From the NCBI RefSeq assembly GCF_988242995.1, contig NZ_OZ547043.1: a stretch of 64,000 bases of DNA; one strand, written 5' to 3'. Shown here one piece after another: positions 53,601 through 56,600 of the stretch. Made by a program: the position numbers. How positions within the stretch are numbered: the first letter of the stretch is position 1; every line of letters starts with the position of its first letter.

Positions 53601-56600
53601 CTGGCGACGGCTTCAGCCATCAACGCGAACCTGTTCGCCGTGTTTAACATCATGGACAACATGGGCAGCGAACGCGAACTGCCGAAGCTAATGAATAAAT
53701 CCCTGTGGCGGCAGAGTACCTGGGGCAACATCATTGTCGTGGTGTTGATTATGCTGATGACGGCGGCACTAAATTTAGGCTCACTCGCCAGCGTTGCCAG
53801 CGCCACCTTTTTGATTTGCTATCTGGCGGTGTTTGTGGTGGCGATCCGCCTGCGTCATGATATTCACGCCTCGTTGCCGATTCTTATCGTTGGTACGTTG
53901 GTGATGTTGTTGGTGATCGTTGGCTTTATCTACAGCCTGTGGTCCCAGGGCAGCCGTGCGTTGATATGGATTATTGGTGCAATCTTACTCAGCCTTATTG
54001 TGGCAATGGTCATGAAGCGCAATAAAACCGTATAACACCTCTCTGTGCGCAGTACAGCCTGTACTGCGCCTTTGTCTTTAATTCAAATTACCTTTCTTAT
54101 TCCTTTAATAAATAAGTCACAAAAAAATGATATATACGCGATAAATCTGTGATGCTAATCACTTATTACCGTGGATTATTCTTAATGTGTATGATGGTAA
54201 TCTAAAAGTCGTAGTGTATTCTAAATAAATAACGTATAAGCTTTTTAGCTGCATTTCTTTGCCAATATCAATGATCGACAAAAGAGATGCACAAGTTATT
54301 ACCCTTCTTAATAAAATGAGACTGGTTATAAAAACCAGTTAAAATAATGACCTGGAAGGAAGTGACTTATCTATGGCGCGATTCCAGTTTAAAAGCCGTA
54401 AAAATAATGGGTTTATTTTTTTAATAAGTTTTATGGTGATGGGAGAAGCTACAATTGCTGCACCGCTGCCACAATGGGCGAACGCCCCAGCGGTAACGCC
54501 AGTTGCCCAATTATCTTTACAGGAAAGTATATTACGCGCCTTTGCGCGAAATCCCGACGTCACTCAACAGGCGGCGCAGATAGGTATTGGCGAAGCGCAA
54601 ATTGATGAAGCCAAAAGTGCCTGGTATCCGCACGTTGGATTAACCGGCAATGCGGGACCGTCCCGACAAACGGACTCCAGTGGCAGGCTTGATAACAACG
54701 TTTCGTATGGCATAACCCTGACACAGCTGGTGTATGACTTTGGTAAAACTAACAACGATATCAAACTGCAAACTGCCGCCCGTGACAGCTACCGCTTTAA
54801 ATTGATGGCAACATTAACCGATGTTGCAGAGAAAACGGCAACTGCCTATATGGAAGTCAGTCGTTATCAGGCTTTGTGCGATGCGGCTCAACGCAATATT
54901 CACTCGCTGGAAAACGTCTACAACATGGCAGCATTGCGTGCTAACGCTGGCCTGAACTCGTCGTCGGATGAATTACAGGCCCAGACGCGCATTGCCGGAA
55001 TGCGCTCAACGCTGGAGCAATATCAGGCGCAGATGGCAAGCGCCAAAGCGCAACTGGCGGTGCTCACTGGCGTACAGCCGGAGGCGATAGCCGCGCCACC
55101 TGCTGAATTAGCCGAGCAGTCGGTATCGCTGAAAAATATTGATTACCAGTCCATCCCGCTGGTGCTGGCGGCAGAAAACTTACGCCAGTCAGCACAGTAC
55201 GGCGTGGAAAAAACGAAAGCGCAATACTGGCCAACGCTGAGTATTCAAGGGGGCAAAACGCGCTACCAGACCAGCGACCGCTCGTATTGGGATGATCAGC
55301 TACAACTGAACGTTAACGCGCCGCTGTATCAGGGCGGCGCGGTTTCTGCCCAGGTGCAACAGGCCGAAGGGCAACAAAAAATCTCTGCCTCGCAGGTCGA
55401 ACAGGCAAAACTGGATGTGCTGCAACGAGCGTCTGTGGCATATGCCAACTGGACAGGCGCACGGGGTCGCGAAGAAGCCGGTTTAGCACAATCCGAAAGT
55501 GCGCACAAAACGCGAGATGTGTACCAAAATGAATATAAATTGGGCAAACGCAGTCTGAATGATCTATTAACCGTCGAGCAAGATGTCTTTCAGGCGCAAT
55601 CGGCTGAAATAAATGCCAATTATGATGGCTGGGTCGCCGCCGTAAATTATGCCGCTGCGGTGAATAACCTTATTCCATTAGCGGGAATTAAACAGGGCTT
55701 ATACAACGACTTACCCGACTTAAAATAATCCTGCCATTATTAATAGTGGGGCGTTGTTAAGTGATTACCTTTGTCTTATTTAGATAAATGGACTCGCTAA
55801 GGATATGCGCCATTTATCAGGAATGCCATTATGAGCCTGATTATTGATGTTATTTCGCGTAAAACATCCGTCAAACAAACGCTGATTAATCCTGGCGACG
55901 TCACGGTTGTTATTTATGAGCCCTCTGTGGTGCAGGTTCATGCTCAGGCATCTGCCGTTGCGCGTTATGTTCGTGACGGAAATGACTTGTTGATCTATAT
56001 GCAGGACGGCACGGTGATCCGCTGCAACGGTTATTTCCTGCAAGCGGCAAATACCAGCGAACAATCCGAACTGGTGTTTGTCGATGGTCAACAACTGACC
56101 CACGTAACATTTGCCGATACCGCGGCAGGTGGATTAGCGCCCGTGGAGCTGACCGCTCAGACCACCGCAATTGAAAGCATTGCGCCGTACCTTGATATCG
56201 TCGGCCAGACGACGGCTTTCCCGTGGGGATGGCTGGCGGGGGCGGCGGTAGGTGGCGGCGCGCTTGGCGCTTTACTGGCAAGCGGTGGCTATGATGACTC
56301 AAAAACTGAAGTGGTTAACAACCCACCGCCAGCCGAACCCGGCAACGCCACGCCATCGTTTTTGGTAACCGATAATCAGGGCGATCAACGCGGTATTCTT
56401 TCCGCCAACGATACCACCGATGACACTACGCCAACCTTTAGCGGCAGCGGGCAGGCGGGGGCGACCATCCAGATTAAAGACAGCAATGGTGACACCATCG
56501 CCAGTACTCAGGTCGGTAGCGATGGACGCTGGAGCGTCGATTTGCCCACGCAAAGCGCGGGCGAACATACCTGGTCAGTGGTGCAAATCGTCGGTAGTAC

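What the first reader, a model, noticed from the sequence alone, without database searches (positions are those of the whole stretch)
54036..54372. AT-rich junction between core ybaT and the island, with a dyad just upstream of the outer-membrane gene
Seen in sequence: right after the ybaT terminator a ~290-bp AT-rich stretch precedes the TolC-like gene. It contains the inverted repeat actggtt-ataaaa-aaccagt about 35-55 bp upstream of the ATG. Established knowledge: AT-rich DNA at island borders is a typical H-NS target, and type I secretion adhesin loci are often silenced in the laboratory. Inference: the dyad is a candidate operator for a dedicated regulator, and this stretch marks the left boundary of the acquisition.
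Basis: partly seen in the sequence, partly recalled or inferred. Interest (0 to 1): 0.35.

Follow-up and report, generated by a model that had tools for sequence, protein, structure and literature searches.

The report
Adhesin operon control region, deletion scar
The AT-rich stretch is the already-studied control region and 144-base transcribed leader of an E. coli giant-adhesin secretion operon; the small inverted repeat lies inside that leader, not at the promoter, and the "island border" is really one end of a deletion carried by K-12-type strains.

Summary
The window is E. coli 042. The AT-rich stretch (32% GC), the ybaT terminator and the dyad are all present. The dyad is ACTGGTT-ATAAA-AACCAGT (54321-54339); its spacer is 5 nt, not 6. 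A dyad this good turns up by chance in 32% of shuffles.

The variable segment starts at 54063/54064, inside the terminator hairpin. K-12-type genomes (4458 of 5426) keep the frameshifted last 32 codons of the island's HlyD gene fused there. The "empty" site is therefore a 25.8-kb deletion scar, not an insertion site. The locus sits at the same place in E. ruysiae, E. whittamii and other Escherichia lineages, and has diverged as much as ybaT.

This locus is OI-28 (ecs0540-0544), published as dependent on PhoB, RpoS and RstA. A published Cappable-seq map of EDL933 places the start site at window 54229. The dyad is therefore at +93 to +111 of a 144-nt leader, not in a promoter. Its arms are the most variable part of a conserved block.

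Substitutions in this stem and a neighbouring one mostly preserve RNA pairing on the + strand (10 of 12). The stem nests inside an invariant helix predicted to sequester the ribosome-binding site. It is more likely a leader RNA hairpin than an operator. H-NS binding remains untested.

The parts
52743..54035 (+). ybaT (APC-family permease), the core gene upstream
54047..54079 (+). ybaT intrinsic terminator: 11+11 nt hairpin 54047-54069, then CTTTGTCTTT
   Evidence: It varies only by one-sided, mostly G.U changes across 27 sequences.
54063..54064 (.). Left breakpoint of the 25.8-kb presence/absence polymorphism, inside the terminator hairpin. K-12-type homology ends at 54063.
   Evidence: The right breakpoint is at L001 30890/30891, inside hlyD.
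54079..54092 (+). Published RstA box TAATTCAAATTACC (-294 to -280 from the ATG)
   Evidence: PMC12758282 reports EMSA, ChIP-qPCR and lacZ assays in EDL933. The sequence is identical in 042. It is not conserved outside E. coli.
54092..54136 (+). Pho-box-like 11-bp repeats (best match CTTTAATAAATAAGTCAC, 54103-54120), then 10 nt, then TATATA (54131-54136). Candidate PhoB-dependent promoter; this placement is my inference.
   Evidence: scan (14 of 18 positions). PhoB regulation of ecs0540-0544 is reported by Yoshida 2010, as cited in PMC3978041. No start site was seen here in phosphate-replete conditions.
54148..54163 (.). CRP-like site TGTGA-N6-TCACT, centred at -73.5 from the mapped start site (inference)
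   Evidence: 9 of 10 core positions match, and only two such sites occur in the 64 kb. The half-sites are invariant and the centre variable in all aligned sequences.
54190..54229 (+). Stationary-phase promoter and mapped start site: -35 TATGAT 54190-54195, -10 TATTCT 54217-54222, start at 54229. A minor start site lies at 54247.
   Evidence: Cappable-seq of EDL933, positions 579751 and 579769 (PMC10469882 supplements).
54229..54372 (+). 144-nt 5' leader of the TolC-like / adhesin operon
   Evidence: Fold energy is -35.6 kcal/mol, z = -3.3.
54250..54291 (+). Hairpin A: arms 54250-54260 and 54281-54291, with a 20-nt loop that is the most variable segment of the region
   Evidence: All 5 substitution events in the stem preserve pairing.
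54293..54368 (+). Helix B: AAGUUAUU..CCUUCU (54293-54308) pairs with GGAAGG.AGUGACUU (54354-54368) and sequesters the Shine-Dalgarno sequence
   Evidence: It is invariant in the 9 sequences retrieved by protein match. Predicted probability that the SD is unpaired is below 1.2% from 20 to 42 C.
54321..54339 (+). The reported dyad, ACTGGTT-ATAAA-AACCAGT: hairpin C, at +93 to +111 of the leader
54271..54342 (+). Small upstream ORFs that end at TAA 54340-54342. In E. coli: 23 codons from ATG 54271, plus MHKLLPFLIK (54287-54319) overlapping MRLVIKTS (54316-54342). In other lineages: one 18-26-codon ORF. Speculative.
54354..54375 (+). Shine-Dalgarno GGAAGGAAG and the ATG of the TolC-family gene
54373..55728 (+). 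TolC-family outer-membrane gene (tolC28 / Z0608 / ECs0540 orthologue), first gene of the operon

Best explanation
The 337-bp stretch is the complete cis-control region of the OI-28-type type I secretion / giant adhesin operon. That operon runs TolC-like gene, SiiEA/BapA-like adhesin, ABC transporter, HlyD, and is followed directly by cueR.

From left to right the stretch contains:
- the ybaT terminator;
- upstream activator sites: the published RstA box, a Pho-box-like tandem and a CRP-like site (the last two placements are my inference);
- a stationary-phase promoter whose start site, mapped in EDL933, corresponds to window 54229;
- a 144-nt leader.

The dyad lies at +93 to +111 of this leader. 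It is therefore transcribed and is not a promoter operator. The best-supported reading is that it forms a small RNA hairpin on the + strand. This hairpin nests inside an invariant long-range helix that pairs CCUUCU with the GGAAGG ribosome-binding site. Translation of the first gene would then need that helix to be opened, possibly by ribosomes translating a short upstream ORF that ends 30 nt before the ATG.

Shown: the positions, the sequence conservation, the substitution pattern and the predicted folds. Taken from published work: the start site and the regulators. Inferred: that the hairpin and the SD-sequestering helix form and matter in vivo.

Separately, the junction is not an insertion boundary. 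The K-12-type ybaT-cueR junction arose by a single 25.8-kb deletion running from inside the ybaT terminator (after 54063) to 95 nt before the end of hlyD.
For: Identity and layout. The window is 100% identical to E. coli 042. The gene order comes from the RefSeq annotation.

Deletion scar.
- K-12-type homology ends at 54063 and resumes at L001 30891, with 2 nt of filler.
- The remnant translates to VVAVDIRTGKK / frameshift / VLEYLLKPFNKAQEALRER*, against the HlyD C-terminus VATVDIRTGKKSVLDYLLKPFNKAQEALRER*.
- One junction type is found in 4458 genomes and the full locus in 958.
- The same glsA-ybaT-TolC-adhesin synteny occurs in Escherichia sp. E1V33, E. whittamii, E. ruysiae and further lineages.
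- Identity at 4-fold degenerate sites is 0.59-0.71 for TolC and 0.66-0.68 for ybaT.

Regulation, from published work.
- RstA box, EMSA, ChIP and lacZ: PMC12758282.
- 55-fold RpoS dependence: PMC2907692.
- Induction on entry to stationary phase: PMC2241611.
- PhoB control: Yoshida 2010, via PMC3978041.
- Cappable-seq start site 579751 (= window 54229), strongest in stationary phase: PMC10469882 supplements.

The dyad as RNA rather than operator.
- Its arms took 7 substitution events in 16 columns, against 3 events in the 37 unpaired columns of 54281-54372.
- The palindrome is 6 of 7 positions in E. ruysiae, 4 of 7 in E1V33 and 3 of 7 in E. whittamii, yet all still fold as RNA at -9.4, -5.7 and -3.6 kcal/mol.
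- In stems A and C together, 10 of 12 events preserve pairing on the + strand, against 27% expected from the local substitution spectrum (p about 7e-5; p = 0.019 under a 50% null). There is 1 transversion in 12 events, against 71 in 125 in unpaired columns (Fisher p = 0.0015).
- The same three-helix minimum-energy fold is obtained for 8 divergent haplotypes.
- The leader folded from the mapped start site has z = -3.3.
Against: - No pair shows a compensatory change on both sides, so the structural evidence rests on one-sided G.U changes only.
- For the dyad alone the signal is weak: 5 of 7 events, p = 0.02 to 0.23 depending on the null.
- One E. coli haplotype (ACTAGTT) breaks a central pair.
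- The dyad stem evolves at close to the neutral rate.
- The helices were chosen from a fold of the 042 sequence, after the fact.
- Helix B is invariant, so its pairing cannot be tested by covariation. Its conservation could equally reflect DNA or protein recognition.
- 6 of 9 changes in the dyad region are synonymous in the upstream ORF frame, which gives an alternative explanation of the same pattern.
- The start site was mapped in EDL933, not in 042. The promoter hexamers are identical in the two strains.
- The PhoB promoter position is my inference, and I could not read the primary paper.
Confidence: 0.55

Rival explanations
1. The dyad is a chance palindrome in AT-rich DNA with no function of its own. 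The surrounding block is conserved for other reasons, such as the ribosome-binding site, A/U-rich translation enhancers or protein sites.
For: - A dyad this good appears in 32% of shuffles.
- The arms change at about the neutral rate: 7 events against 8.3 expected.
- The perfect 7-bp form is specific to the major E. coli haplotype.
- An IS1 sits in its loop in one strain, ECNB21-M121.
Against: - 5 of 7 arm changes keep + strand pairing, and together with hairpin A the figure is 10 of 12.
- The hairpin is predicted in all 8 haplotypes tested.
Confidence: 0.3
2. One reading: the dyad is a DNA operator for a dimeric regulator, acting as a repressor, a roadblock or a dedicated regulator of the island.
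For: - It is a perfect 7+7 palindrome in 042 and in most E. coli.
- It is intact in the divergent lineage L043.
Against: - It lies 92 nt downstream of the mapped start site.
- The island has no regulator gene.
- Both half-sites decay in E1V33 and E. whittamii while the flanks are invariant.
- The CueR box CCTTCC-N7-GGAAGG is absent.
- The published RstA site is elsewhere.
Confidence: 0.08
3. The substitution pattern reflects a translated upstream ORF (leader peptide) covering the dyad, rather than RNA pairing. Its translation controls access to the downstream SD.
For: - Every lineage has a small ORF ending at 54340-54342. The stop is kept as TAA changed to TGA in L043, and the ATG is changed to GTG in L047.
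- 6 of 9 events in 54316-54342 are synonymous.
- In E. coli a 1-nt deletion leaves an ATGA stop/start overlap.
Against: - There is no convincing SD before most of the candidate starts.
- A frame-shifting indel lies inside the ORF.
- The N-terminal part shows mostly non-synonymous changes.
- The O157:H7 haplotype loses the ATG at 54316.
- No ribosome-profiling support was found (uninformative).
- Open frames of this length are common in AT-rich DNA.
Confidence: 0.2
4. The AT-rich stretch is mainly an H-NS nucleation site that silences a horizontally acquired island.
For: The stretch is 32% GC with A-tracts. It contains one 8 of 10 match to the H-NS high-affinity motif at 54138-54147.
Against: - That motif match is one of 80 in the window.
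- The operon is well expressed in stationary phase in laboratory media.
- The locus is ancestral, not recently acquired.
- No H-NS data were found.
- H-NS binding is not excluded and could coexist with the main explanation.
Confidence: 0.25
5. The dyad terminates antisense transcription. On the - strand it reads as a hairpin followed by CTCATTTTAT.
For: A terminator-like match on the - strand. An antisense start site at EDL933 580040 (window 54518) was seen in one condition.
Against: - The stem is weak, with 3 G-C pairs.
- The observed substitutions would be A.C mismatches on the - strand.
- No - strand gene lies upstream.
Confidence: 0.03

Closest known systems
OI-28 / ecs0540-ecs0544 (tolC28-rtxA28-rtxB28-hlyB28-hlyD28) regulatory region of E. 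coli O157:H7
   Same: It is the same locus and essentially the same sequence: 5 differences from 042 across the 337-bp intergenic stretch. It carries the same RstA box, the same promoter hexamers and the same dyad. Control by PhoB, RpoS and RstA and a genome-wide mapped start site are all published.
   Different: The papers I could read describe neither the dyad nor any leader structure, and they treat the island as horizontally acquired. PMC12758282 reports OI-28 as absent from EAEC (0 of 10), yet EAEC 042 carries it. In 042 the adhesin gene is annotated as a pseudogene.
SD-sequestering 5' leaders opened by upstream-ORF translation (translational coupling, leader-peptide control)
   Same: A long-range helix is predicted to occlude the SD. 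A short ORF traverses the 5' strand of that helix and stops 30 nt before the main ATG.
   Different: Nothing here has been shown experimentally. The upstream ORF has poor initiation signals and is not conserved as a peptide. There is no covariation.
Palindromic operators such as FadR/GntR-type or MerR-type (CueR) sites
   Same: A short perfect inverted repeat near a gene start.
   Different: - The spacing and half-sites match neither FadR (CTGGT-N3-ACCAG, from memory) nor the CueR box.
- The position is +93 to +111.
- The half-sites are not conserved.
Salmonella SPI-4 sii and SPI-9 bap type I secretion adhesin loci
   Same: The same kind of cargo: a giant Ig-repeat adhesin with TolC, ABC and HlyD components. 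RefSeq names the adhesin 'BapA-related adhesin SiiEA'.
   Different: The gene order and upstream regions differ. Homologous loci in Enterobacter, Pseudocitrobacter and other genera have leaders that do not align with this one.

Membership tests
Palindromic transcription-factor operator | Dyad symmetry present | tested here: met
   7+7 nt arms with a 5-nt spacer at 54321-54339
Palindromic transcription-factor operator | Symmetry beyond chance expectation | tested here: not met
   32% of shuffles contain an equal or better dyad
Palindromic transcription-factor operator | Overlaps or adjoins the core promoter | tested here: not met
   The published start site maps to window 54229, which puts the dyad at +93 to +111
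Palindromic transcription-factor operator | Both half-sites conserved in orthologous regions | tested here: not met
   4 of 7 and 3 of 7 symmetric positions remain in E1V33 and E. whittamii, while the flanks are invariant
Palindromic transcription-factor operator | Cognate regulator encoded nearby | tested here: not met
   The island has only TolC, adhesin, ABC and HlyD genes. cueR follows, but no CueR box is present.
Palindromic transcription-factor operator | Protein binding at the site | not testable with these tools
   Published EMSA was done for RstA only, and its site is at 54079-54092
Genomic island insertion boundary | Clean empty site in genomes lacking the island | tested here: not met
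   The empty site keeps 95 nt of the hlyD 3' end, with a frameshift
Genomic island insertion boundary | Integrase, tRNA or flanking direct repeats | tested here: not met
   None are annotated. The junction shows only short microhomology.
Genomic island insertion boundary | Divergence of island genes discordant with flanking core genes | tested here: not met
   Identity at 4-fold sites: TolC 0.59-0.71, ybaT 0.66-0.68
Rho-independent terminator (ybaT) | G+C-rich stem followed by a T-run | tested here: met
H-NS-bound AT-rich region | AT-rich composition | tested here: met
   32% GC
H-NS-bound AT-rich region | H-NS occupancy or silencing | not testable with these tools
   No ChIP data were found. 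Published expression data argue against full silencing.
Structured cis-regulatory 5' leader | The region is transcribed as part of the mRNA | tested here: met
   Published Cappable-seq start site at window 54229
Structured cis-regulatory 5' leader | Predicted structure more stable than shuffled sequence and shared by orthologues | tested here: met
   z = -3.3. The same fold is obtained for 8 haplotypes.
Structured cis-regulatory 5' leader | Covariation supporting the base pairs | tested here: inconclusive
   No double compensatory changes. 10 of 12 single changes preserve pairing.
Structured cis-regulatory 5' leader | Known RNA family | tested here: not met
   All Rfam matches are far below their gathering thresholds
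CRP site (54148-54163) | TGTGA-N6-TCACA core with conserved half-sites | tested here: met
   9 of 10 core positions match. The half-sites are invariant in 27 sequences. Binding was not tested.

The most novel reading that the evidence does not exclude
Across the genus Escherichia, the giant-adhesin type I secretion operon would be gated after transcription by a conserved 144-nt leader. An invariant helix locks the ribosome-binding site of the first gene. It is opened by translation of a short upstream ORF, or by an sRNA or protein acting on the invariant A/U-rich loops. The reported dyad is the inner hairpin of this device. Separately, the single ancient deletion that removed the operon in K-12-type strains also rewired cueR onto a new promoter.
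Probability: 0.3. Interest if true: 0.45.

Novelty: new member of a known kind. Interest (0 to 1): 0.3.

Why it matters
The locus is a colonisation factor of EHEC O157:H7 (PMC12758282). Its control has been studied only at the level of transcription.

If the leader really masks the ribosome-binding site, promoter fusions and qRT-PCR would miss a layer of control over when the secretion channel and the adhesin are made.

Recognising the K-12-type junction as a deletion scar changes how OI-28 should be described. It is an ancestral Escherichia locus lost in most E. coli, not a pathogen-specific acquisition. It also explains why cueR starts 160 nt upstream in EHEC but 19 nt upstream in K-12.

None of this is surprising in kind.

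Tried and rejected
- Two sigma-70-like sites close to the dyad: TGCACA-18-TAAAAT (54288-54317) and ATGAGA-18-TAAAAT (54316-54345), the second with the dyad in its spacer. Rejected because their number is no higher than in shuffles, no start site was mapped downstream of either, and EDL933 carries T>C in the first -10.
- Rfam search of 53900-54500: only sub-threshold noise.
- H-NS motif TCGATAAATT: one 2-mismatch match in the region, out of 80 in the window.
- RfaH ops element GGCGGTAGNNTG: none in the leader.
- RNA thermometer idea: the SD stays paired from 20 to 42 C in the model.
- FadR, RutR, lux-box and CueR-box resemblance for the dyad: compared by eye and from memory, no fit.
- Leaders of homologous TolC-adhesin loci in Enterobacter, Pseudocitrobacter, Budvicia, Rosenbergiella and Trabulsiella: they do not align, so they could not be used for covariation.
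- Literature searches for 042 locus tags and for H-NS ChIP over O-islands: nothing usable.
- Ribosome-profiling supplements searched for the upstream-ORF peptides: no hit.
- The primary PhoB paper (PubMed 20640580) is not held.
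Full report
**What is there**

The window is E. coli 042 (NC_017626.1; window position = record position minus 525036), with a 100% match. The local order is copA (-), glsA, ybaT (52743-54035), a TolC-family gene (54373-55728), then a 20.8-kb 'BapA-related adhesin SiiEA' gene. RefSeq annotates that adhesin gene in 042 as frameshifted with an internal stop. Next come a type I secretion ABC transporter, a HlyD-family adaptor, and cueR, whose ATG overlaps the hlyD stop by 4 nt.

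The 337-bp intergenic stretch is 32% GC. It begins with a clean terminator: an 11+11 nt hairpin at 54047-54069 followed by CTTTGTCTTT.

The dyad is real but was mis-copied. It is ACTGGTT-ATAAA-AACCAGT at 54321-54339, with a 5-nt spacer, 34-52 bp upstream of the ATG. On its own it is unremarkable: 32% of dinucleotide-preserving shuffles of the AT-rich part contain a dyad at least as good.

**The boundary is a deletion scar**

Of 5426 complete E. coli genomes, 958 carry the junction. The island-specific 309 bp occurs only in those 958. Another 4458 genomes share a single alternative junction.

In that K-12-type junction, homology to 042 runs to window 54063, inside the terminator hairpin. After 2 nt it resumes at L001 30891, which is 95 nt before the end of hlyD. 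The retained piece encodes the HlyD C-terminus with one frameshift: VVAVDIRTGKK, frameshift, VLEYLLKPFNKAQEALRER*. An empty site that contains the tail of an island gene must descend from an occupied site. About 25.8 kb was lost.

The locus occupies the same glsA-ybaT-TolC-adhesin position in Escherichia sp. E1V33, E. whittamii, E. ruysiae and several unnamed lineages. Identity at 4-fold degenerate sites between 042 and E1V33 or E. whittamii is 0.59-0.71 for the TolC gene and 0.66-0.68 for ybaT. This is what vertical inheritance predicts.

No integrase, tRNA or flanking direct repeat is present. Independent decay also occurs:
- one genome has a separate internal deletion starting near 54237;
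- E. whittamii has a TolC gene interrupted by internal gaps;
- several E. coli-labelled genomes encode shortened TolC proteins of 423-432 aa instead of 451.

**What is already published about this stretch**

This is O-island 28, also called ecs0540-ecs0544.

- Niu et al. 2025 (PMC12758282) show activation by RstA. They locate an RstA box, TAATTCAAATTACC, at -294 to -280, which is window 54079-54092 and identical in 042. They do not mention the dyad, and they treat the island as horizontally acquired.
- Z0608 is 55-fold and Z0609 20-fold RpoS-dependent (PMC2907692).
- ECs0540 and ECs0541 rise 11- to 17-fold on entry to stationary phase (PMC2241611).
- Yoshida et al. 2010 reported PhoB control. 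This is cited in PMC3978041 and PMC12846084; I could not obtain the primary paper.
- A Cappable-seq map of EDL933 (PMC10469882, supplementary tables) gives a + strand start site at 579751 for this gene. It was detected in two exponential-phase conditions and in all four stationary-phase conditions. Read scores were 0-4 in exponential phase and 9-65 in stationary phase. The predicted -10 is tattct. A minor start site lies at 579769.

With the offset, these start sites are window 54229 and 54247. The -10 is TATTCT at 54217-54222. 042 and EDL933 are identical at these elements.

**Consequences for the dyad**

The dyad lies at +93 to +111 of a 144-nt leader, not in or next to a promoter. Two promoter-like matches that bracket it have no mapped start site. 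One of them is damaged in EDL933, where the operon is nonetheless expressed. The island encodes no regulator.

**Comparative test**

I aligned 27 distinct versions of the region. Neutral divergence among the main lineages is about 33% at 4-fold sites. Even so, the block 54281-54372 is almost invariant: 3 events in its 37 unpaired columns.

The dyad arms are the exception, with 7 events in 16 columns, close to the local neutral rate. As a DNA palindrome the dyad decays from 7 of 7 positions in E. coli to 6 of 7 in E. ruysiae, 4 of 7 in E1V33 and 3 of 7 in E. whittamii. Two E. coli haplotypes, ATTGGTT and ACTAGTT, each lose one position. This argues against a conserved operator.

**An RNA reading**

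Folding the leader from the mapped start site gives -35.6 kcal/mol (z = -3.3) and three helices:
- hairpin A (54250-54260 / 54281-54291), whose 20-nt loop is the most variable segment between invariant arms;
- helix B, which pairs AAGUUAUU..CCUUCU (54293-54308) with GGAAGG.AGUGACUU (54354-54368) and so covers the Shine-Dalgarno sequence;
- the dyad, as hairpin C, inside helix B.

The same architecture is the minimum-energy fold of 8 divergent haplotypes and the RNAalifold consensus.

No pair shows a double compensatory change. However, of 12 substitution events in stems A and C, 11 are transitions and 10 preserve pairing on the + strand as G.U or A-U. The local substitution spectrum predicts 27% (p about 7e-5 to 9e-5; p = 0.019 under a conservative 50% null). 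In unpaired columns 71 of 125 events are transversions (Fisher p = 0.0015). The bona fide ybaT terminator evolves in the same way.

For the dyad alone the support is weak: 5 of 7 events, p = 0.02 to 0.23. Helix B is invariant, so it cannot be tested by covariation. The metagenome-derived sequences were selected by matching its strands. It is also invariant in the 9 sequences retrieved by protein match. In the model the SD stays paired from 20 to 42 C, so this does not look like a thermometer.

**Upstream ORF**

Every lineage has a short ORF that crosses the 5' strand of helix B and the dyad, and ends at 54340-54342. Non-coli lineages have one ORF of 18-26 codons, M(K/E)EMHKLLPFLNKM(M/R)LVIK(I/T)S. 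E. coli carries a 1-nt deletion. That leaves a 23-codon ORF from ATG 54271, and a 10-codon ORF whose TGA overlaps the ATG of an 8-codon ORF. In the dyad part, 6 of 9 events are synonymous.

This explains the substitution pattern about as well as pairing does. It also suggests a mechanism: translation of the upstream ORF would open helix B. The initiation signals are poor, however. The peptide is not conserved, and no translation data were found. I treat it as a hypothesis.

**Other elements in the stretch (my inference)**

- A CRP-like site, TGTGATGCTAATCACT (54148-54163), matches 9 of 10 core positions. Only two such sites occur in the 64 kb. Its half-sites are invariant and its centre is variable in all 27 sequences. 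It is centred at -73.5.
- Pho-box-like 11-bp repeats lie at 54092-54120, followed after 10 nt by TATATA. From memory, this is the geometry of the phoA promoter. No start site was seen there in phosphate-replete media.

**Verdict**

The boundary is correctly located, but it marks a loss in K-12-type strains rather than a gain in 042. The operator idea is not supported. H-NS binding is untested, and the operon is not silent in laboratory stationary phase. The dyad is most likely a modestly constrained RNA hairpin within a conserved, SD-masking leader (about 0.45). Otherwise it is a neutral chance palindrome (about 0.3). The locus itself is already known; the leader architecture and the deletion-scar reading appear to be new but are ordinary in kind.

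Noticed in passing
L002 2665-2764 (K-12-type ybaT-cueR junction); L001 30826 and 30891-30985: In EHEC, cueR is transcribed from a start site 160 nt upstream of its ATG, inside hlyD (EDL933 604687, seen in all 8 conditions). In MG1655 the start site is 19 nt upstream (PMC10469882, Table S5 sheet 3). The K-12-type deletion removed the -160 promoter, which lies 65 nt left of the right breakpoint, and also the right arm of the ybaT terminator. K-12-specific substitutions in the remnant create a TTGAAT hexamer that could serve as a new -35.
   Followed up: partly
L081 3268-4045 (E. coli ECNB21-M121): An IS1A element is inserted in the loop of the dyad, with a 9-bp target duplication TGGTTATAA. It separates the leader and promoter from the TolC-like gene.
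   Followed up: yes
L029 3775-7960 ('E. coli' SCPM-O-B-8794): The locus has decayed independently here. A deletion runs from about window 54237 into TolC codon ~168. Only remnants of the adhesin and ABC genes remain, while hlyD and cueR are retained.
   Followed up: partly
window 55837-64000 and L001 6874-27651: The giant adhesin gene of 042 is annotated as a pseudogene (frameshifted, internal stop). PMC12758282 reports OI-28 as absent from EAEC (0 of 10), although EAEC 042 carries the whole locus.
   Followed up: no
L001 31397-34987: A second variable segment lies between cueR and ybbJ in 042. It holds two hypothetical genes, a YadA-like fragment and another hypothetical gene. In K-12-type genomes ybbJ follows cueR directly.
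   Followed up: no
window 54148-54163: A CRP-like palindrome, TGTGATGCTAATCACT, has invariant half-sites and a variable centre across Escherichia. It is centred at -73.5 from the mapped start site. The papers I read on this locus do not mention it.
   Followed up: partly
window 20806-20821: A perfect CRP core, TGTGATAAAGATCACA. Its context was not examined.
   Followed up: no
window 45665-45676: An exact match to the RfaH ops consensus GGCGGTAGCGTG lies inside the ushA coding region. It is probably coincidental.
   Followed up: partly
L042 1-1784 and L005 (Pseudocitrobacter): The homologous TolC-adhesin locus in Pseudocitrobacter is preceded by a PAS-GGDEF-EAL gene. This suggests c-di-GMP control in that genus. 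Escherichia has no such gene at this locus.
   Followed up: no
window 54095 and 54186, minus strand: The EDL933 Cappable-seq data list minus-strand start sites at 579617 and 579708 within the AT-rich stretch, reading back toward ybaT.
   Followed up: no
L007 4001-5269; proteins P0022-P0027: In E. whittamii the TolC-like match is interrupted by internal gaps, so the gene looks decayed. Separately, several E. coli-labelled genomes encode shortened TolC-like proteins of 423-432 aa instead of 451, so the outer-membrane component may be decaying in some lineages.
   Followed up: no
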